Shown piece after piece: positions 3,217 through 61,063 of a stretch of DNA of 64,000 bases. The DNA lies in NCBI GenBank assembly GCA_016784145.1, contig JADHVF010000003.1, positions 22,048 through 86,047 of the forward strand. The letters are read 5' to 3'. A program made the position numbers and the translations under genes. Below the pieces are notes generated by a model. The model did no database searches. It was not told the DNA's origin and saw only the letters and a program-made list of their open reading frames with translations. How positions within the stretch are numbered: the stretch's first letter is position 1; each line of letters starts with the position of its first letter. The DNA is from Patescibacteria group bacterium. GTDB lineage: Bacteria; Patescibacteriota; Patescibacteriia; UBA2591; UBA6264.

Positions 3217-3774
3217 ATGATAAAAGATAAGATCCCGGGAGGTAAAAAATTAATTGATGCAAAAACTCTCTTAGAAAAAACAGGCATTGGTAAAAAAATG
3301 TCTGTAGCAGATCTTGGCTGTGGGAGAAGAGGACACTTTTCTCTTCAATCAGCTAAATTGGTTGGCCCCCAAGGAGTTGTTTATGCCATTGATATTGTAA
3401 AAGACGCTTTAGCTAGCGTAGAGGGAGCTTCTAAGGTTTTTGGCGTAATGAATCTAAAAACAATTTGGGCTGATTTAGAAATTTACGGCTCAACAAAATT
3501 AAAAGATGATTCCATTGATTTAGTTATATTAAATAATGTATTATTCCAGACAACCAAAGAAAAAGAGATAATAAAAGAAGGTATAAGAATATTAAAAAAA
3601 ACAGGCAAATTTTTAATTGTTGACTGGAAAAAATCATCAACCCTTTTCGGGCCTCCAATGGAAAATAGAGTTAGTATTGATGAAATAAAACAAACTACAA
3701 GAGAAGTCGGATTAAAATTAGTTAAAGAATTTACAGCCGGACCAAGTCACTACGCCTTGATATTCAAAAAATAA
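3217..3774 (+). CDS. class I SAM-dependent methyltransferase
   Basis: DLGCGRRGHF SAM-binding motif I. Motif II-like VILNNVL. Confidence 0.5.
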   Translation: MIKDKIPGGKKLIDAKTLLEKTGIGKKMSVADLGCGRRGHFSLQSAKLVGPQGVVYAIDIVKDALASVEGASKVFGVMNLKTIWADLEIYGSTKLKDDSIDLVILNNVLFQTTKEKEIIKEGIRILKKTGKFLIVDWKKSSTLFGPPMENRVSIDEIKQTTREVGLKLVKEFTAGPSHYALIFKK

Positions 3775-3958
3775 CCTACTTAGGATTGCTTGGGATTTGG
3801 GCTCCAAGTATTAATAACTGATGTTTGTATGACCTCTGCTTTTTTAGAAAAGAAGAGGATTTGTATTTAGAAGACCATTGGGAAACCAGGGAAAATATTT
3901 AATAATTAAAATACTTATTTTTTGCCGAACAAGAAGCAAGGCCTCTTGATGTCAAGTA

Positions 3959-3987
3959 TTGACAAAAACAAAAAAATTTGCTACCAT
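3959..3987 (+). promoter_or_regulatory. sigma70-like promoter (TTGACA-17-TACCAT) for small membrane protein gene
   Basis: Exact TTGACA at 3959-3964, 17-nt spacer, weak -10 TACCAT. AAGGAGG SD at 4004-4010. Confidence 0.35.
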
Positions 3988-4016
3988 ATATATACAATCT
4001 AAAAAAGGAGGATACT

Positions 4017-4244
4017 TTGAAAAAATATACTGCAAGAAGAAAAATGATTCACAGAATCATATCCGGGCCATTATTTATGGCTATTGGGACATATCTCGTG
4101 TTTCAAACAAGCGGGGCTGGTTCAACTCCCGGAGAAATAGTTGTCTCCACGATATTATTCCCTGTCTGGTTATTTGGAATAGCAATGACAACATTCGGCA
4201 TTTATGTCCTTTTTCTTCCATTAATCAGGAAATACGATTTATAA
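4017..4244 (+). CDS. small two-helix membrane protein (hypothetical)
   Basis: ORF track starts at TTG 3978. AAGGAGG at 4004-4010 favours TTG 4017 or ATG 4044 as the real start. Two hydrophobic helices. Confidence 0.4.
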   Translation: MKKYTARRKMIHRIISGPLFMAIGTYLVFQTSGAGSTPGEIVVSTILFPVWLFGIAMTTFGIYVLFLPLIRKYDL

Positions 4245-4256
4245 AACAAAGTAAAC

Positions 4257-4285
4257 AAAAGCCGGCTAATTAAAGCCGGCTTTTC
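4257..4285 (+). terminator. rho-independent terminator
   Basis: AAAGCCGGCT-aatta-AAGCCGGCTTTT hairpin with T-run. Confidence 0.55.
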
Positions 4286-4334: not shown

Positions 4335-4523
4335 CCAAGTAGGCCCTACTTAGAGGCCTTTACCTCACTTAGAGGCCTTGCCCCTAAGTAGATATTGAGC
4401 ACGAATCTTACTGAGGGTTTTACTTAGAGGCCTTGCCCCTAAGTAGGGTAGAAATCAATAATCAGTAATCAATAATCAACAACCTCGCTGAGGGTTTTAC
4501 TTAGAGGCCTTGCCCCTAAGTAG
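4335..4523. repeat. cluster A of GC-rich palindromic repeat (core ACTTAGAGGCCTTGCCCCTAAGTAG) with degenerate copies and an ATCAATA heptad tract
   Basis: Exact cores at 4368-4391, 4422-4446 and 4499-4523. Partial copies at 4335-4359 and 4411-4420. Heptads at 4449-4481. Confidence 0.8.
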
Positions 4524-4546
4524 ATATTGAGCACAAATATCATGTA

Positions 4547-4575
4547 TTGACAACCGAAGAAGAATTTGTTATTAT
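4547..4575 (+). promoter_or_regulatory. sigma70-like promoter TTGACA-17-TATTAT
   Basis: TTGACA 4547-4552, 17-nt spacer, TATTAT 4570-4575. AAGGAGGA SD about 9 nt upstream of ATG 4620. Confidence 0.45.
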
Positions 4576-6387: not shown

Positions 6388-8343
6388 ATGCTTTATTTTT
6401 CTATTGTTATTTCTATGCTAGGGCTTTTAATCGCTTTTTATTTAGCAAATAAAATAAAAAGAATAAATACAAATAGCCATTCAGCCGAGCAAATAGCAGA
6501 ATTAATAAAAAATGGAGCAATGTCTTTTTTAAAAGAAGAATATAGAGTTTTAAAAATATCTGTAATCATCGTATTTTTCCTCCTCTTTATTTTTTTATCA
6601 ATCAAAATAGCCATTACATTTATTTTTGGAGCTATTTTAGCCGCCTTGTCTGGAAACATTGGCATGCGGATTGCAACTATTGCCAACATACGAACAGCTG
6701 AAGCAGTGCAATCAAAAATAATTCCTGGACTTAAAATAGCCTTTAATTCTGGCACTGTAATGGGGCTAACAACTGCTTGTTTTGGATTAACTGGAATAAG
6801 TATTTTTTATATTATTTTTCAAGACATCCAAATTATTTATGGATTTGGATTAGGAGCATCTTTGGTGGCATTATTTGCCAGAGTAGGTGGAGGAATATAT
6901 ACCAAAGCAGCTGATGTTGGGGCAGATTTAGCTGGCAAAATTGAAGCAAGTATTCCGGAAGACGATCCCAGAAATCCAGCTATAATCGCGGACAATGTTG
7001 GCGATAACGTAGGAGATGTGGCTGGCATGGGGGCTGACTTATTTGAAAGTTATGTTAATTCCTTGATTGCCAGCATGGCTTTGGGTATGATTGGAATTCA
7101 ACTTATAGGAAAAAATATTATATTTATTCCGCTAACAATAGCTGCCATTGGAATAATCTCTAGTTTGATTGGGTATTTAACTGTTTATTTTTCAAAATCA
7201 AGCAAACCAGCCAAAATACTTGATAAAACAATATGGGCTTCTTCTGTTTCGACAATAATTGGTTCTCTTATATTTTTAAAAATATTTTCTTTCGATATAA
7301 AAATTTTAGGTGCAATTATTGCTGGTCTTGTTTGTGGAGTAATAATCGGAGCAACTACCCAATATTTTACATCAAATAAATATAGTCCTACAAAAAACTT
7401 GGCCAAAGCATCTATTACGGGAGCTGGTACAAATATTATTTCTGGAATATCATTGGGAATGAAAAGCACATTAATTCCAATGTTAGCAATTTCAGCTACA
7501 ATTTTAATTTCTCATAAAATTGCAGGTGTCTATGGAGTCAGTCTAGCGGCTATTGGAATGCTATCAATATTAACAACAATTATTGCCATTGATGCCTATG
7601 GGTCTATCTCTGACAATGCAGCTGGCATTGCTGAAATGGCTAAAATGGGGAAATCAACCAGAAAAAATGCTGAAAGATTAGATTCAATTGGAAATACAAC
7701 CGCAGCTATTGGGAAAGGGTTTGCCATTGGCTCGGCAGCATTGACTGCCATTGTCTTGTTAACTAGCTATCTTCAATCAATACAAGTAAAAATTATTGAT
7801 TTAAATAGGCCAGAAATTATTGTTGGACTATTTATTGGTGGATTAATGCCATTTTTATTCTCATCCATTACAATGCAAGCTGTTAGCAAAACTGCTGAAA
7901 AAATTGTTCAAGAAGTGCGCAGGCAATTCAAAGAAATAAAAGGGCTAATCCAAGGAGAAACAAAGCCTGATTATCAAAAATGTATTACAATATCAACCAA
8001 TGCTGCTTTAGGCAAAATGGTTCTGCCTAGCATAATAACAATTATAGCTCCCATTCTTATTGGGATAGTCCTTGGCAAGCAAGCATTAGGAGGATTTCTT
8101 GTTGGAGCAATTTTAGTTGGGTTCTTGTTGGCCGTAATGATGGCCAATTCAGGCGGGGCATGGGATAATGCTAAAAAATATATTGAGCAAGGAAATCTAG
8201 GAGGCAAGGGTTCTGATGCTCACAAGTCATCCATTATCGGAGATACTGTAGGAGACCCTTTTAAAGATACGGCTGGGCCAAGCTTGAACATTCTTATCAA
8301 GTTAATGTCAATTGTATCTTTAATTATTGCTCCATTATTATAA
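6388..8343 (+). CDS. hppA: membrane-bound H+(or Na+)-translocating pyrophosphatase
   Basis: [49 protein letters not shown] signature motifs. About 15 predicted TM helices. Confidence 0.9.
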
Positions 8344-9810: not shown

Positions 9811-10067
9811 TTACCTCACTTAGAGGCCTTGCCCCTAAGTAGGGTACAAATCAATAATCAGTAATCAATAATCAACAACCTCACTGAGGGTTCTACTTAG
9901 AGTTTACTTAGAGGCCTTGCCCCTAAGTAGAGTATAAATCAATAATCAGTAATCAATAATCAACAACCTCACTTAGAGGCCTTGCCCCTAAGTAGAATAA
10001 TCAACAATCTCCCTTAGAGTTTTACTTAGAGGCCTTGCCCCTAAGTAGACTCACTTAGAGGCCTTGA
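9811..10067. repeat. cluster B of the GC-rich palindromic repeat
   Basis: Cores at 9818-9842, 9906-9930, 9971-9995, 10024-10048, truncated copy 10051-10067. Spacings 88/65/53. ATCAATA heptads interleaved. Confidence 0.8.
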
Positions 10068-14849: not shown

Positions 14850-14862
14850 GTTTAGAAATGAC

Positions 14863-14984
14863 TATTGATTAGTGATTATTGATTATTGATTATTGATTAT
14901 TAATTATTGATTAGTGATTATTGATTAGTGATTATTGATTATTGATTAGTGATTATTAATTAGTGATTATTGATTATTATTCTG
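14863..14984. repeat. TGATTAn heptad microsatellite (about 17 units)
   Basis: ttgattagtgattattgattattgatta... period 7, between mscS stop (14977) and terminator. Confidence 0.85.
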
Positions 14985-29287: not shown

Positions 29288-29854
29288 ATGATATATGCTA
29301 TTTTTGGAAAAATTTTAGCCAAGCAAACCAAGACAATAATACTTGAAGTAAATAATTTATTTTTTGAAATTTTTGTTACAAATTCTTTTATAAACAAAAC
29401 AAAAATAGACCAAGATATTAAATTGTTTACTTATTTAGCCGTAAAAGAAGAAGCATTTCAATTATATGGATTTGAAAGCGAAGAAGAGTTGAATTATTTT
29501 AAATTATTAAAAAAAATCTCTGGCATCGGACCCAAGTCAGCCATAAATATTTTATCTTTAGTTGGTATAAATAATTTGGAAAAAGCAATTTTAGAAAAAG
29601 ATTCTAACGTACTAACAAAAGTATCTGGAATTGGATCTAAAATTGCTGAAAAAATTATTTTAGAACTAAAAGGAAAAATCAAAGCAACAATTAAAACTTA
29701 TACATCTATTGATGATGAAACAACAATCGATGCACTAACAAGTCTAGGATATTCCATGCAAGAATCTAGGCAAGTAATAAAAAAAATTCCAGATAATATG
29801 ATAAATGCTGAAGATAGAGTTAAACAAGCATTAAAAATTTTATCTGGAAAATAA
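29288..29854 (+). CDS. ruvA: Holliday junction branch-migration protein RuvA
   Basis: OB N-domain, HhH motifs ISGIGPKSAINILS and VSGIGSKIAEKII. Confidence 0.8.
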   Translation: MIYAIFGKILAKQTKTIILEVNNLFFEIFVTNSFINKTKIDQDIKLFTYLAVKEEAFQLYGFESEEELNYFKLLKKISGIGPKSAINILSLVGINNLEKAILEKDSNVLTKVSGIGSKIAEKIILELKGKIKATIKTYTSIDDETTIDALTSLGYSMQESRQVIKKIPDNMINAEDRVKQALKILSGK

Positions 29855-29935
29855 ATAATTAATGATTAATGATTAGTGATTAGTGATTAGTGATTAATGA
29901 TTAATGATTAATAATTAATGATTAGTGATTAATGA
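29855..29935. repeat. TGATTAn heptad microsatellite filling the whole ruvA/rplU convergent spacer
   Basis: attaatgattaatgattagtgattagtgatta..., 11 to 12 units. Confidence 0.85.
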
Positions 29936-30325
29936 TTATTTCGTTTTCTTAACCGTGCTTTTAGCCGGTTTTTTCTTAACCGTGCTTTTAGCCGGTTTTT
30001 TTACTTGGGCAGAAGTAAATGACAAAATCTTGATTTTTGTCTGTAATTGTCTATGCCCTTGTTTTCTTTTATAACGATTTTTACTTTTGTATTTAATGAC
30101 AACAATCTTTGGAGCTTTTTGTTGCTCTAAAATTTCAGCCTTAACAACCATTTTAAGTAATGGTTTGCCTATTTCAATTTTTTTAGACAAATCAAAAAAC
30201 AACAAAACATTATCTAGCATTATTTTGTCACCTGGTTGGCCATCAATTTTCTCTATATTTAATAAATCTCCCTTTTTTACAAGATATTGTTTTCCTCCTG
30301 TTTTTAATACTACAAATTTTTCCAT
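29936..30325 (-). CDS. rplU: 50S ribosomal protein L21 with lysine-rich C-terminal extension
   Basis: MEKFVVLKTGGKQYLVKKGD matches the L21 start. C-terminal KKPAKSTVKK duplicated (27-bp DNA tandem duplication 29947-30000). Confidence 0.8.
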   Translation of the reverse strand: MEKFVVLKTGGKQYLVKKGDLLNIEKIDGQPGDKIMLDNVLLFFDLSKKIEIGKPLLKMVVKAEILEQQKAPKIVVIKYKSKNRYKRKQGHRQLQTKIKILSFTSAQVKKPAKSTVKKKPAKSTVKKTK

Positions 30326-39388: not shown

Positions 39389-39473
39389 CGGAGAGGGAGG
39401 GATTCGAACCCTCGATACCTTGCGATATACTGGTTTTCGAAACCAGCGCCTTCAACCACTCAGCCACCTCTCC
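39389..39473 (-). tRNA. tRNA-Ser (CGA), long variable arm
   Basis: Reverse complement GGAGAGGTGGCTGAGTGGTTGAAGGCG-CTGGT-TTCGAAA-ACCAG...GGTTCGAATCCCTC. Confidence 0.8.
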
Positions 39474-39518
39474 TTAATTTTATTTAAATTATATTTTTTC
39501 GTAAAACCTTCTATCTAC

Positions 39519-39900
39519 TTAATTTTCTACTTAGGTCTACTTAGGGGCAAGGCCTCTAAGTAAAACTCTCAGTGAGGTAGTTGATTATTGATTATTGATT
39601 ACTAATTACTGATTATTGATTACTGATTATTGATTTCTATTCTACTTAGGGGCAAGGCCTCTAAGTAAAGACATAAGTCAAGAAAAGCAAGTATTAACAC
39701 CAAAACCTCATCCTGTTCCTCGACCAAAACCTGACTTAGGGGCAAGGCCTCTAAGTGAGGTAGTTGATTATTGATTATTGATTATTGATTTGTACTCTAC
39801 TTAGGGGCAAGACCTCTAAGTGAGGTAGTTGATTATTGATTACTGATTATTGATTACTACTCTACTTAGGGGCAAGACCTCTAAGTGAGAGTAAGTGAGG
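39519..39900. repeat. cluster C of the GC-rich palindromic repeat (opposite orientation: CTACTTAGGGGCAAGGCCTCTAAGT) with TGATTAn heptads
   Basis: Cores at 39537-39561, 39642-39666, 39735-39758, 39797-39821, 39862-39886. Confidence 0.8.
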
Positions 39901-39966
39901 TAATTCAGGGAATCAATCCTCTTGTCAACTCTTGTCAGGGCCTAATACTAACATTCTATATCAGTG

Positions 39967-41244
39967 TCAATGTTCAGTGTTCAAGGATTGTTTTAAAAAT
40001 ATTACTAAAGCTATTAAGAACCAAAATAAAACTGCCAAATCATTCTTAAAATATGGCGTATCGACTAATCCATGAACAAGAACAACTAACATTGCTCCCA
40101 TAACACTTAATGCATATATTTCTTGTTTTTTTATGCATTGCCAAGCATTATGCCAAAACATTATTATTATAAATATAAATAGCAACCAACCGAGCAGGCC
40201 TATTTCTGACCACAAACTTAAAAATAAATTATGTGGATATGGATGTGTTTCAACTGAAATCAATTCGTTTGTGTCTGGATGATAATACCTTGCTTGAAAA
40301 TCAGGAATTAGTGTTTGATAACCACTTAGCCCTACCCCAATGACTGGGCTAGTTTTTAATAAACTAATTGCTCCTTGCCAGATATTAATTCTTAATTGTC
40401 CTGATAAATCATTAAAAAAAACTTTGGAAATAATATAATTATTAATTGGAGCGACAACTACAAATAATAAAACTCCAACAAGTAAAACGCTAACAACTAT
40501 TTTGCGAGATTGCCTGTGCATTAAGCCAATAAAAATAATTCCTGCCAGTGCTCCAATAATCGCTCCTTCTGATCGAGCAAAAATTAATGCTAAAAATGAA
40601 AATATTAAAAATATTACACCAAACAAAGAGTACAATCTTTTTAATTGAAAAAAATTAAAAACTATTAATCCAAAACTCAAAGCAATGATAGGTCCGAGCC
40701 AAAGTCCTAAAAAATTAGGATGAGGGAAAGGTCCGGTTACTCTTAATACCTGCGATGCCCCCCAAGCCTCTGTGCTTAAAACGCCTGTGCCAGTGATTTT
40801 CTGAAACAAAGCATAAATTGAAATATAAAATCCTGAGAAAACTAAAGAAAGTAAAGCAAAATTAAAATCTTGCTTATTTTTTATCAAAGCCAGAAATATT
40901 ATGACTAATAAAATTGGCTCTAAAAAATAGGCCTTCCAGATACCGGCCCCAGCCCGTAAATCAGGAGCTACAAAAATTGAGATTAATGATATTAACAACC
41001 AAGCCAACATTAAATAGGCCCATTTATCCAGTATAAAATAAACTTTTTTTACTTGGATTATTTTTTTTATTAAACAAACTATAAATAAAATCAAAATCAT
41101 TACCTCTAAAAAAGTCATTGGGATGGCTAAAAGCTCAAACCTAATTTGATAACTTGGAATAAAAACTAATAAACAAAACAAAGCATATTTTGGCTTAACC
41201 CAGGCAAAGATACTGTAAATTGTTGATATTAAAATATAAATCAT
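39967..41244 (-). CDS. O-antigen ligase/polymerase-like polytopic membrane protein (WaaL/Wzy family)
   Basis: 425 aa, about 12 TM helices with a large loop near the C-terminal third. Family call is tentative. Confidence 0.35.
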   Translation of the reverse strand: MIYILISTIYSIFAWVKPKYALFCLLVFIPSYQIRFELLAIPMTFLEVMILILFIVCLIKKIIQVKKVYFILDKWAYLMLAWLLISLISIFVAPDLRAGAGIWKAYFLEPILLVIIFLALIKNKQDFNFALLSLVFSGFYISIYALFQKITGTGVLSTEAWGASQVLRVTGPFPHPNFLGLWLGPIIALSFGLIVFNFFQLKRLYSLFGVIFLIFSFLALIFARSEGAIIGALAGIIFIGLMHRQSRKIVVSVLLVGVLLFVVVAPINNYIISKVFFNDLSGQLRINIWQGAISLLKTSPVIGVGLSGYQTLIPDFQARYYHPDTNELISVETHPYPHNLFLSLWSEIGLLGWLLFIFIIIMFWHNAWQCIKKQEIYALSVMGAMLVVLVHGLVDTPYFKNDLAVLFWFLIALVIFLKQSLNTEH

Positions 41245-47442: not shown

Positions 47443-47498
47443 AAATAATTAATAAATGATTATTAATTATTGATTAGTGATTAGCAATTATTGATTAA
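47443..47498. repeat. TGATTAn heptad tract between trxB stop and its terminator
   Basis: aataattaataaatgattattaattattgattagtgattagcaattattgatta. Confidence 0.7.
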
Positions 47499-60634: not shown

Positions 60635-60751
60635 TTTTTTTGTTCTCCTTTGATTATTAATGTACTTAACTACATTATGTATGCAGCCATTGTATTATTA
60701 ACCAATATAGCATATTTTAAGGTTTTGTCAATCGCAAACTGCCTAAATAAA

Positions 60752-61063
60752 AAATGTGCAATATCAAAGATCGCACACTCACAAGTAGTTACTTAGAGGC
60801 CTTGCCCCTAAGTAGATACACTTAGAGATATTACTTAGAGGCCTTGCCCCTAAGTAGATATTGAGCACGAATCAATAATCAATAATCAGTAATCATTCAC
60901 TTAGAGATATTACTTAGAGGCCTTGCCCCTAAGTAGAGTCACTTAGAGATATTACTTAGAGGCCTTGCCCCTAAGTAGAGTCACTTAGAGATATTACTTA
61001 GAGGCCTTGCCCCTAAGTAGATATTGAGCACAAAAAAGTGTGCAATATCAAAGGTTGCACACT
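60752..61063. repeat. cluster D: five palindromic-repeat cores in a 42-bp tandem unit, bounded by two copies of a second hairpin element (AGTGTGCAA-n9-TTGCACACT)
   Basis: Cores 60791-60815, 60833-60857, 60922-60946, 60954-60978, 60996-61020. Bounding hairpins 60752-60778 and 61037-61063. Confidence 0.8.

What the first reader, a model, noticed from the sequence alone, without database searches (positions are those of the whole stretch)
39519..39960. Cluster C: same repeat in reverse orientation between a membrane-protein gene and tRNA-Ser
Five cores appear as the reverse complement (CTACTTAGGGGCAAGGCCTCTAAGT), interleaved with TGATTAn heptads. Two copies carry the same G-to-A variant (GGGCAAGACCTC), suggesting local duplication. 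Short direct repeats lie downstream (CTCTTGTCA x2, CAGTGTNCAA x2 at 39905-39985). Orientation can be defined by the asymmetric loop, so the element is inserted in either orientation. That is consistent with a mobile or recombination-spread palindromic element rather than a strand-specific regulatory RNA.
Basis: seen in the sequence. Interest (0 to 1): 0.5.

Follow-up and report, generated by a model that had tools for sequence, protein, structure and literature searches.

The report
Hairpin-and-heptad repeat clusters, CPR bacterium
A 25-base hairpin-forming repeat, interleaved with TGATTAY seven-base repeats, is scattered in clusters through the gaps between housekeeping genes of an uncultured Patescibacteria (CPR) bacterium; it looks like a new family of the small, probably selfish, REP/SDR-type intergenic repeats known in other bacteria, and is not a gene or a regulatory RNA.

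Summary
Five copies of CTACTTAGGGGCAAGGCCTCTAAGT lie on the + strand at 39537-39886. Two adjacent copies carry G->A, and TGATTAY heptads lie between the copies. The cluster sits between a Wzy_C membrane-protein gene and tRNA-Ser(CGA). The window holds 17 copies in four intergenic clusters, where chance predicts none.

The host is an uncultured Patescibacteria bacterium. No transposase lies within about 74 kb. The hairpin is invariant in all but one column, while its flanks change abruptly and come in several alternative modules. Segments of 85-103 nt (two cores plus the heptads between them) are 90-96% identical between clusters, in either orientation. Cluster-specific variants and partial-arm "stutters" point to local tandem duplication and slippage.

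Clusters sit in spacers between transcription units, in both orientations relative to flanking genes. In a syntenic relative, the site matching cluster B is empty.

My best reading (confidence about 0.55) is a lineage-specific, non-coding, REP/BIME- or Nostoc-SDR-like mosaic repeat family. It would seed new loci by an unknown route and then expand locally. I found no target-site duplications, and mobility itself is not shown. It is a new member of a known kind, of moderate interest.

The parts
39389..39473 (-). tRNA-Ser (anticodon CGA), the left neighbour of cluster C
   Evidence: ARAGORN; Rfam tRNA, 60.7 bits
39488..39517 (-). Promoter-like site (TAGATA-18-TATAAT, 10/12) placed to drive tRNA-Ser. 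Its -35 hexamer overlaps the first partial core arm at the edge of cluster C.
   Evidence: Consensus scan only
39515..39535 (+). Two partial 5'-arm 'stutters' (CTACTTA, CTACTTAGG) that precede core 1
   Evidence: Read directly from the sequence; CTACTTAG matches
39537..39561 (+). Core 1, CTACTTAGGGGCAAGGCCTCTAAGT. It forms an 11-bp stem with an AAG loop and one G.U wobble.
   Evidence: fold of -15.3 kcal/mol, z -4.9
39562..39641 (+). Trailer AAAACTCTCAGTGAGGTAGT, then eight TGATTAY-type heptads, then linker TCTATT
39642..39666 (+). Core 2 (exact consensus)
39667..39731 (+). 65-nt non-repeated spacer with an internal ACCAAAACCT x2 direct repeat. It carries 4 transition SNPs in one sample, and contigs from that sample end here.
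39732..39756 (+). Core 3 (5' TG instead of CT; hairpin intact)
39757..39796 (+). GAGGTAGT + heptads (TGATTAT x3, TGATTTG) + linker. Together with core 3 this makes the first 65-nt composite unit.
39797..39821 (+). Core 4, the G->A variant. The closing C-G pair is lost on this strand and becomes U.G on the other strand.
39822..39861 (+). GAGGTAGT + TGATTAT TGATTAC TGATTAT TGATTAC + TACT. On this strand only, it can fold as a second, G.U-rich hairpin closed by GGTAGT/ACTACT.
   Evidence: 65-nt unit folds at -21.6 kcal/mol against -10.3 on the opposite strand
39862..39886 (+). Core 5, with the same G->A variant as core 4 (a tandem duplicate)
39887..39905 (+). Array 3' end, GAGAGTAAGTGAGGTAAT. The GAGGTAA ending is shared with clusters A and B.
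39967..41244 (-). Wzy_C / O-antigen-ligase-type membrane protein gene, the right neighbour. Cluster C lies downstream of its stop codon.
   Evidence: Pfam PF04932, 1.5e-23
4347..4537 (-). Cluster A: 3 intact cores plus one decayed copy. It lies between terminator 4257-4284 and promoter-like site 4547-4575 of + strand genes.
9811..10066 (-). Cluster B: 4 cores plus a partial 3' arm, between convergent tRNA-Gly (+) and tRNA-Tyr/Thr (-). The matching spacer in a syntenic relative is empty.
   Evidence: relative L098
60791..61031 (-). Cluster D: 5 cores, mostly in 42-nt units, downstream of tRNA-Val. It is bracketed by two copies of a terminator-like hairpin (61033-61063 and 60749-60779, 90% identical).
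   Evidence: (family D19)
14859..14978 (+). Heptad-only array (17 copies of TGATTAT/G) with no core, between the MscS gene stop and its terminator. This is a related simple repeat with a different variant spectrum.
29854..29938 (+). Heptad-only array (12 copies of TGATTAA/G) that fills the spacer between convergent ruvA and rplU
47457..47497 (+). Short heptad-only array between the stop of a thioredoxin-reductase-like gene and its terminator

Best explanation
Cluster C is one of at least four intergenic clusters of a lineage-specific, non-coding mosaic repeat family in an uncultured Patescibacteria (CPR) bacterium.

The conserved unit is a 25-27-nt imperfect palindrome, CTACTTAGGGGCAAGGCCTCTAAGT(R)A. 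It is combined with a small set of alternative flanking modules: leaders GTGCTCAATAT or TGATTTnTAyy, trailers GAGGTwGT or AAAACyCTCAGTGAGGTwGT or AATATCTCTAAGTGAnT, and a (TGATTAT/TGATTAC)n heptad block.

Proposed mechanism, in two steps:
1. Seeding (inferred). Composite segments of about 40-100 nt that contain one or two cores are copied into new terminator-to-promoter or gene-end spacers, in either orientation. This could be an unidentified hairpin-recognising DNA enzyme acting in trans, or ectopic recombination/template switching.
2. Local growth (shown by sequence pattern). Arrays expand and are reshuffled by slipped-strand or unequal recombination between cores. That yields 42-, 53-, 55-, 65-, 77- and 88-nt tandem units, cluster-specific variants and partial-arm stutters.

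The family behaves as selfish or neutral DNA that persists where it does not disturb transcription units. Side effects on RNA 3' ends or on DNA topology are possible but not required.
For: Shown:
- 17 copies against 0 expected by chance.
- All copies are intergenic, in four clusters.
- Sharp conservation boundary: 22 of the 23 hairpin columns (plus one A just 3' of the core) are invariant in 17 copies, while the columns immediately outside vary and fall into 3-4 alternative modules on each side.
- Long composite segments are shared between loci: A/B 85 nt at 96% (direct), B/C 88 nt at 95% and 103 nt at 90% (inverted), A/C 75 nt at 91%.
- Core-linked heptads carry their own signature: TGATTAC 8, TGATTAG/A 0. 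Heptad-only arrays read TGATTAC 1, TGATTAG/A 19. So the heptads travel with the core as one unit.
- Cluster-specific variants: GAGGTAGT and the G->A change occur only in C, GAGGTTGT in A and B, and the 42-nt unit only in D.
- Partial-arm duplications occur at array edges and inside trailers.
- Both orientations relative to neighbouring genes occur.
- A and D lie between a terminator and the next promoter, B between convergent terminators, and C between a gene stop and the tRNA-Ser promoter-like site.
- A relative with the conserved order NusA-H+PPase-tig-tRNA-Gly|tRNA-Tyr-tRNA-Thr-FBA-TIM has only ordinary terminators at the cluster B position.
- The core is absent from 185,579 species-representative genomes and from IMG/VR. 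The only JGI metagenome hits are four copies of one unrelated high-GC terminator locus.
- No diverged copies (up to 6 mismatches) occur in 1.3 Mb of other loci.
- No Rfam family matches.
- One scaffold suggests a longer, variant cluster B in another sample.
Against: - No short target-site duplications flank any cluster. Removing a unit does not restore the heptad phase (65 mod 7 = 2).
- No transposase, RAYT or recombinase is encoded in the window or in the genes called in the next 10 kb.
- No clean filled-versus-empty allele pair between close strains was seen. All assemblies of the species carry the same clusters.
- The only empty site is in a species with about 51% Tig identity, where intergenic DNA has turned over anyway.
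- Near-perfect conservation of the core could equally reflect function, as a protein-binding site or an RNA element.
- The folding asymmetry between strands (G.U-dependent) is unexplained by a purely selfish dsDNA model.
Confidence: 0.55

Rival explanations
1. RNA-level cis element. The hairpins would be transcribed as part of neighbouring transcripts, or from their own promoters, and would act as 3'-end protective, processing or terminator-insulator structures, as some E. coli REPs do. For cluster C they would stabilise the 3' end of the polysaccharide-gene mRNA upstream of tRNA-Ser.
For: - The hairpin is stable: -15.3 kcal/mol on the core strand and -11.4 on the other.
- No canonical terminator was found between the Wzy_C stop codon and cluster C, so C is probably transcribed as a 3' UTR.
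- Three of the four clusters adjoin tRNA genes.
- The core strand plus heptads folds far better than the complement, through G.U pairs, which hints at selection on a single-stranded form.
Against: - Orientation relative to transcription is not consistent. In A and C the transcript would carry the weaker strand with the A.C mismatch.
- A and D lie after canonical terminators and before the next promoter, so little transcription is expected there.
- No U-tract follows the hairpin, although ordinary hairpin-plus-T-run terminators are used elsewhere in the window.
- There is no covariation. The only stem change breaks a pair on the core strand.
- No Rfam family matches.
Confidence: 0.17
2. DNA-level protein-binding array. 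The imperfect palindrome (half-sites ACTTAGGGGC / ACTTAGAGGC) would be the operator of a dimeric DNA-binding protein, and clustered sites would serve nucleoid organisation, a topological barrier or regulation, as proposed for BIMEs that bind IHF and gyrase.
For: - The 23-nt palindrome is almost perfectly conserved while its flanks vary.
- There are 3-5 clustered sites per locus.
- The clusters sit in non-transcribed spacers next to promoters. Cluster A ends about 10 nt from a -35 hexamer, and cluster C overlaps the -35 of the tRNA-Ser promoter-like site.
- Function would be independent of orientation, which matches the data.
Against: - The neighbouring genes have no common theme: small hypothetical proteins, tRNAs and polysaccharide genes.
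- The family is absent in the syntenic relative.
- Partial and decayed copies and variable spacing (42-105 nt) look like unconstrained amplification, not a designed array.
- No candidate binding protein was identified.
Confidence: 0.15
3. Classical REP/REPIN family mobilised by a RAYT (IS200/IS605-like HUH tyrosine transposase) encoded elsewhere in the genome.
For: - It is an intergenic imperfect palindrome of REP size.
- A CTAC tetranucleotide abuts the stem (GTAG on the other strand), and the strands fold asymmetrically, as expected for a substrate recognised as ssDNA.
- From my own knowledge, the heptads contain TTGAT and TTAC, the target sequences of ISDra2 and IS608.
Against: - All cores within a cluster are in direct orientation, not inverted as in REPIN doublets.
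- The tetranucleotide is on the opposite side compared with E. coli REP (from memory).
- No Y1 transposase is present in about 74 kb.
- Excising a unit does not restore the heptad register.
Confidence: 0.1
4. A degenerate CRISPR array, a tandem sRNA gene array, or an assembly artefact.
For: - Short repeats alternate with spacers.
- Assemblers break or leave gaps in these regions.
Against: - The 'spacers' are themselves repeated modules of irregular length (17-80 nt), and no cas genes are present.
- No Rfam hit was found.
- Identical arrays were recovered in independent assemblies from different samples.
Confidence: 0.02

Closest known systems
REP / BIME elements of Enterobacteria and Pseudomonas (REPINs; Bertels & Rainey 2011, PMC3116915)
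   Same: - Short (20-40 nt) imperfect palindromes confined to intergenic DNA.
- Clustered into mosaic arrays with a limited set of conserved linker motifs.
- Orientation is definable from mismatches and the loop.
- A conserved tetranucleotide abuts the stem.
- The families are species-specific.
   Different: - Cores within a cluster are all in direct orientation, whereas BIMEs alternate and REPINs are inverted doublets.
- The linkers include a heptanucleotide tandem block.
- No RAYT gene was seen in the DNA available.
- Genome-wide copy number is unknown.
- The host is a CPR bacterium; the papers I searched do not describe such repeats in CPR.
Small dispersed repeats (SDR) nested in heptameric STRR arrays of Nostoc/Anabaena (Elhai et al. 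2008, Genome Res 18:1484; recalled from memory, paper not held; it is cited as 'SDR' in PMC3116915)
   Same: - Very small (21-27 nt) dispersed repeats, some of them hairpin-forming.
- Physically associated with tandem heptanucleotide repeats.
- Intergenic, found in either orientation.
- Gain and loss relative to related genomes.
- Mechanism of spread unknown, with no associated transposase.
   Different: - Here the heptads linked to the core have their own variant signature and appear to be copied together with the core. The core does not appear to have inserted into pre-existing arrays.
- No sequence similarity was tested.
- The phylum is different, and CPR genomes are typically small (from my own knowledge).
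Intergenic heptamer arrays such as (TAACTGA)n in Beggiatoaceae, Cyanobacteria and Bacteroidetes (MacGregor 2015, PMC4679880)
   Same: - Tandem heptamers restricted to intergenic DNA, with stop codons in every frame.
- (TAACTGA)n read in another register is (TGATAAC)n, one base from the TGATTAC unit found here.
- Assemblies often break in them.
- One heptad-only array here lies directly upstream of the infB start codon with no evident Shine-Dalgarno sequence.
   Different: - Most arrays here lie at gene 3' ends or in spacers, not just upstream of start codons.
- They are combined with a hairpin core, which that paper does not report.
Modular pneumococcal BOX elements (boxA-boxB(n)-boxC) and Neisseria Correia/NEMIS elements (from my own knowledge)
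   Same: - Non-coding modular repeats with a variable number of internal tandem modules.
- Intergenic, with predicted stable hairpins and no transposase of their own.
   Different: - Those elements have defined terminal modules or terminal inverted repeats. Correia elements also have TA target duplications.
- No such termini or duplications are seen here.

Membership tests
REP/REPIN (RAYT-associated) | Intergenic imperfect palindrome of 20-40 nt, highly over-represented | tested here: met
   17 copies against 0 expected, all intergenic; stable hairpin
REP/REPIN (RAYT-associated) | Replicative unit is an inverted doublet of REPs (a REPIN) | tested here: not met
   All cores within each cluster share one orientation
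REP/REPIN (RAYT-associated) | Cognate RAYT (Y1/HUH transposase) gene in the genome, usually flanked by REPs | not testable with these tools
   None among about 58 window ORFs or the genes called in the next 10 kb.
REP/REPIN (RAYT-associated) | Conserved GTAG-type tetranucleotide 5' of the hairpin | tested here: inconclusive
   CTAC precedes the stem in 16 of 17 copies. That places GTAG at the 3' side on the other strand, which is not the arrangement I recall for E. coli.
BIME | Mosaic of REPs in alternating orientation separated by a few conserved linker motifs | tested here: not met
   The mosaic with conserved linkers is present, but the orientation is direct, not alternating.
Nostoc-type SDR within STRR | 21-27-nt dispersed repeat embedded in tandem heptanucleotide repeats | tested here: inconclusive
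   Size and heptad association are met. The heptad variant spectrum and register indicate that core and heptads were co-duplicated, not that the core inserted into existing arrays.
Nostoc-type SDR within STRR | Insertions absent from the orthologous sequence of relatives | tested here: inconclusive
   One syntenic relative lacks cluster B, but at about 51% protein identity the whole spacer has diverged.
MITE | Terminal inverted repeats plus short target-site duplications flanking a 100-400-bp unit | tested here: not met
   No TSDs at any cluster boundary. The only flanking duplication is a 31-38-nt terminator copy at cluster D.
CRISPR array | Regularly spaced repeats with unique spacers, usually with cas genes nearby | tested here: not met
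   Spacers are 17-80 nt, mostly repeated modules, and no cas genes are present.
Intrinsic terminator | G+C-rich hairpin followed by a U-tract | tested here: not met
   The core is followed by AAAA or GAGG on one strand and AG... on the other. The scan picks up only a weak alternative 5-bp hairpin.
Any Rfam RNA family | Score at or above the family's gathering threshold | tested here: not met
   Only tRNAs pass the threshold. All matches within the repeat are far below it.

The most novel reading that the evidence does not exclude
The 25-27-nt hairpin, alone or with its G.U-foldable heptad block, could be a genuinely mobile 'very small' element of the kind whose mechanism of spread has never been solved for the Nostoc SDRs. 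Here it would be operating in a CPR bacterium; CPR genomes are typically about 1 Mb with roughly a thousand genes (from my own knowledge). Its single-strand-specific fold would then mark an ssDNA (HUH-type or other) or RNA-mediated copying route. The small proteome would make the responsible enzyme identifiable by enumeration.
Probability: 0.2. Interest if true: 0.6.

Novelty: new member of a known kind. Interest (0 to 1): 0.38.

Why it matters
- CPR/Patescibacteria genomes are small and streamlined (from my own knowledge), so about 1.7% of this window (summed cluster lengths) being clustered hairpin repeats, plus further heptad arrays, is not what one expects there.
- These repeats visibly fragment metagenome assemblies of this organism. 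Contigs end, or scaffolds carry gaps, exactly at them.
- If the family is truly mobile, a genome this small is a favourable place to find the enzyme or route that moves 25-nt elements. That question is still open for the cyanobacterial SDRs.
- If the family is only slippage-driven junk, it is still a useful strain marker and a warning for binning and assembly.

Tried and rejected
1. Exact-arm pattern scans. None in 185,579 species genomes and none in IMG/VR. Four JGI hits turned out to be one unrelated high-GC tRNA-adjacent terminator with the same arms, a number consistent with chance.
2. H+-PPase as a handle to find close relatives. The best hit was 56% identical, across many phyla, so it was uninformative. 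Trigger factor gave the Patescibacteria assignment, but the nearest other species is only 51-54% identical.
3. Length differences of cluster B between assemblies (669, 824 and 1042 bp). These are mostly 100-N scaffold gaps, so they cannot be used as clean polymorphism, although one scaffold carries variant units.
4. Insertion into pre-existing heptad arrays. Rejected, because core-linked heptads use TGATTAC and never TGATTAG/A, heptad-only arrays do the opposite, and the 65-nt unit does not keep the 7-nt register.
5. IS200/IS605-style insertion 3' of TTGAT or TTAC. Removing candidate units does not restore a heptad, so there is no support.
6. An orientation rule for heptads relative to transcription. 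I count 5 cases one way and 2 the other, so there is no rule.
7. Promoter function of the TTGCCC-18-AATAAT matches created by core plus heptads. They score 9/12, the counts are not above shuffles, and they do not consistently point at genes.
8. Paralogy among the small hypothetical proteins next to clusters. None found.
9. Diverged copies in 1.3 Mb of other fetched loci. None found.
10. Elhai et al. 2008 could not be read, because it is not held.

Full report
**Observation**

Allowing up to 3 mismatches, CTACTTAGGGGCAAGGCCTCTAAGT occurs 17 times in the window, against 0 in 100 dinucleotide-preserving shuffles.
- Five copies are on the + strand, at 39537, 39642, 39732, 39797 and 39862.
- The other twelve are on the - strand in three clusters: A at 4367-4523, B at 9818-10048, D at 60791-61020.
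- Copies 4 and 5 share the G->A change. They are consecutive units of a 65-nt tandem repeat (2.4 copies, 95% matches).
- Copy 3 starts TG instead of CT.
- TGATTAY heptads separate the cores.
- The small downstream repeats exist. The TCAGTGT one overlaps the 3' end of the neighbouring gene.
- The neighbours are tRNA-Ser(CGA) at 39389-39473 and a Wzy_C-type membrane protein at 39967-41244, both on the - strand.

**Source organism and reality of the sequence**

The window is about 30% G+C and carries 13 tRNA genes. About 58 ORFs were scanned with Pfam and nearly all are housekeeping genes: NusA, H+-PPase, trigger factor, FBA, TIM, DnaB, ClpB, ClpP, RNase Y, YidC, RnpA, ribosomal proteins, PFOR, RNR and RelA.

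An identical trigger factor is deposited as MBL7054031.1, 'Patescibacteria group bacterium'. The next best homologues are only 51-54% identical.

Just beyond the right end of the window lies a 16S rRNA gene with a large insertion that contains a LAGLIDADG ORF. From my own knowledge this is typical of CPR bacteria.

Clusters C and D are base-for-base identical in independent assemblies from several samples, so they are not artefacts. Many contigs stop inside a repeat or a heptad array, and two scaffolds carry 100-N gaps inside cluster B. One of those scaffolds shows four additional cores with variant trailers. This means either a longer array in that population or a collapsed array in the window.

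**Anatomy**

I aligned all 17 copies with 12 nt of flank on each side. The 23-nt hairpin ACTTAGGGGC-AAG-GCCTCTAAGT is invariant in all but one column, the G->A position. The preceding CT is conserved in 16 of 17 copies. Conservation collapses immediately outside.

The flanks fall into a few alternative modules:
- 5' leaders: GTGCTCAATAT (x4, in A and D), TGATTTnTAyy (x6), or a partial 3' arm CTCTAAGTGAnT (x4).
- 3' trailers: GAGGTwGT + heptads, AAAACyCTCAGTGAGGTwGT + heptads, or AATATCTCTAAGTGAnT (D only).
- Clusters A, B and C all end in GAGGTAA.

Partial arms are common at array edges and inside trailers. Examples are CTACTTA and CTACTTAGG before core 1 of C, AAGGCCTCTAAGT before core 1 of B, CTCTAAGT repeats inside trailers, and a decayed fourth copy in A.

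**Evidence for copying between loci and for local amplification**

Composite segments far longer than the core are shared between clusters:
- 85 nt at 96% between A and B.
- 88 nt at 95% and 103 nt at 90% between B and C, in inverted orientation.
- 75 nt at 91% between A and C.

The heptads attached to cores have their own signature. They read TGATTAT 18, TGATTAC 8, TGATTAG/A 0. The five heptad-only arrays (three in the window, two just beyond it) read TGATTAT 22, TGATTAG/A 19, TGATTAC 1. So core and heptads were copied together as a unit. The core did not drop into existing heptad arrays. The 65-nt period also does not preserve the 7-nt register.

Within clusters, variants are local: GAGGTAGT and G->A occur only in C, GAGGTTGT in A and B, and the 42-nt unit only in D. 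This is the expected trace of tandem duplication by slippage or unequal exchange between cores.

**Context**
- Cluster A lies between a bidirectional terminator (4257-4284) and an 11/12 promoter match (4547-4575).
- Cluster D lies after the tRNA-Val terminator. It is followed by a second, 90%-identical copy of that terminator and then an 11/12 promoter match.
- Cluster B lies between the terminators of convergent tRNA genes.
- Cluster C lies between the Wzy_C stop codon and a 10/12 promoter match for tRNA-Ser.

Relative to neighbouring genes, the core strand is antisense in A and C and sense in D. No short target-site duplication is visible at any boundary.

**Comparative evidence**

A related Patescibacteria contig (Tig 51% identical) keeps the gene order NusA-H+PPase-...-tig-tRNA-Gly | tRNA-Tyr-tRNA-Thr-FBA-TIM. 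Between the convergent tRNAs it has only two ordinary terminators, with no core and no heptads.

The core is absent from species-representative genomes, from IMG/VR, and, apart from one unrelated high-GC terminator locus, from JGI metagenomes. It is also absent, even with 6 mismatches, from 1.3 Mb of other loci fetched here. The family is therefore lineage-specific.

Relatives carry different intergenic repeats of their own. Another CPR locus (Peribacteria) has several heptamer arrays of unrelated sequence.

**Structure**

As RNA, the core strand forms an 11-bp hairpin with one G.U pair (-15.3 kcal/mol, z -4.9). The complement has an A.C mismatch at that position (-11.4 kcal/mol).

The 65-nt unit folds into two hairpins on the core strand, the second made of heptads through G.U pairs and closed by GGTAGT/ACTACT (-21.6 kcal/mol, z -5.2). 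The complement reaches only -10.3 kcal/mol.

There is no covariation. The G->A change opens the closing pair on the core strand. Rfam has nothing comparable.

**Interpretation**

The best-supported reading is a REP/BIME- or SDR-like mosaic repeat family. The hairpin core is the conserved unit that is recognised or propagated. New loci are seeded in either orientation in spacers where transcription units are not disturbed, and arrays then grow and shuffle by slippage.

What is shown: over-representation, the sharp core boundary, the modular mosaic, inter-locus sharing of composite units, local duplication, both orientations, lineage specificity, and the absence of a nearby transposase.

What is inferred: that seeding is an active process (transposition-like or template switching) and that the family is selfish and not functional.

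Rivals that remain open are an RNA 3'-end or insulator role (most plausible for cluster C), a protein-binding array, and a RAYT-driven REP family whose transposase lies outside the DNA available. CRISPR, an sRNA array and assembly artefact are excluded.

**Comparison with known systems**

The family works most like REP/BIME elements (PMC3116915). From memory, it also resembles the 21-27-nt SDRs nested in heptameric STRRs of Nostoc (Elhai 2008, not held). It fails the REPIN and BIME criterion of inverted or alternating orientation, and no RAYT could be looked for genome-wide.

The heptads themselves resemble the intergenic (TAACTGA)n = (TGATAAC)n arrays described in Beggiatoaceae, Cyanobacteria and Bacteroidetes (PMC4679880), one base away from TGATTAC.

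The papers I searched do not describe such repeats in CPR bacteria.

**Verdict**

This is a real and well-defined repeat family, a new member of a known kind and of moderate interest. Its 'mobile or recombination-spread' reading is partly supported: spread and local duplication yes, transposition hallmarks no.

Noticed in passing
window 14859-14978, 29854-29938, 47457-47497; L100 249-330 and 6993-7075: There are five heptad-only arrays (TGATTAT/G/A) with no hairpin core. All read TGATTAN on the window + strand. One fills the spacer between convergent ruvA and rplU. One lies between two tRNAs downstream of the 16S gene. One ends about 14 nt upstream of the infB start codon, with no evident Shine-Dalgarno sequence.
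   Followed up: partly
L100 4166-6736 (about 6.5-9 kb beyond the right end of the window): A 16S rRNA gene spans 2.57 kb against a 1.53-kb model. It contains a 248-aa LAGLIDADG_2 ORF, that is, an insertion encoding a homing endonuclease, which I recall as typical of CPR bacteria.
   Followed up: partly
window 60749-60779 and 61033-61063 (- strand): A terminator-like hairpin (GTGTGCAACCTTTGATATTGCACAC + T-run) is present twice, 90% identical, bracketing cluster D. It occurs nowhere else in the window. It could be a long flanking duplication created when the array arose, or a retained insulator.
   Followed up: partly
window 39667-39731; L003 4523-4536 and L106 position 24: In sample ERZ24794656 the 65-nt non-repeated spacer inside cluster C carries 4 transition differences, while the surrounding 600 nt are identical. 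Both contigs from that sample end inside this spacer. This may be strain heterogeneity or contig-end error.
   Followed up: partly
L090 11309-12350 (cluster B in sample ERZ24794647): The scaffold has 4 cores, a 100-N gap, then 4 more cores. Two of those have trailers (AGAACTCTCAGTGAGGTTGT) not seen in the window. This suggests a longer or variant array in that population, or collapse of the array in the window assembly.
   Followed up: partly
window 29944-30001 (- strand, 3' end of rplU): A perfect 27-nt tandem duplication encodes KKPAKSTVK twice in the lysine-rich C-terminal tail of ribosomal protein L21. On the + strand the same sequence looks like a duplicated hairpin followed by a T-run.
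   Followed up: yes
L097 5604-5815 and 8743-8904; L098 777-834/9768-9825 and 7679-7810: Related Patescibacteria contigs carry different intergenic repeats of their own. These are 69- and 79-nt tandem units that combine an AT-rich, promoter-like module with a short G+C hairpin, a 58-nt dispersed repeat, and a 60-nt tandem repeat. Species-specific intergenic repeat families may be common in this clade.
   Followed up: partly
L065 9278-9323, 9796-9882, 18333-18366, 18824-18851 and others: A Candidatus Peribacteria locus holds six heptamer tandem arrays of different sequences (GGCTGAT, GACTCTG x12, ATCATTG and others) within 22 kb. Heptamer arrays are therefore not unique to this genome among CPR bacteria.
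   Followed up: partly
L086-L089 (JGI metagenome contigs): A high-GC organism has a single tRNA-adjacent terminator, AAAAAGGACTTAGGGGCCTCGCCTCTAAGTCCTTGATTTTT. Its stem arms are identical to the core arms, including the G.T position. The hit count is consistent with chance given how the pattern was designed.
   Followed up: yes
window 3959-4273 and 3978-4244: The 104-aa TTG ORF upstream of cluster A looks spurious. The overlapping frame (from 3978, or from the TTG at about 4017, to 4244) follows a TTGACA promoter-like site and a GGAGG ribosome-binding site. It encodes a small hydrophobic protein that ends before terminator 4257-4284.
   Followed up: partly
window 3775-3784: A solitary CCTACTTAGG, matching the 5' arm of the core, lies directly after the stop codon of the methyltransferase gene at 3217-3774. 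It could be a chance match or a remnant.
   Followed up: no
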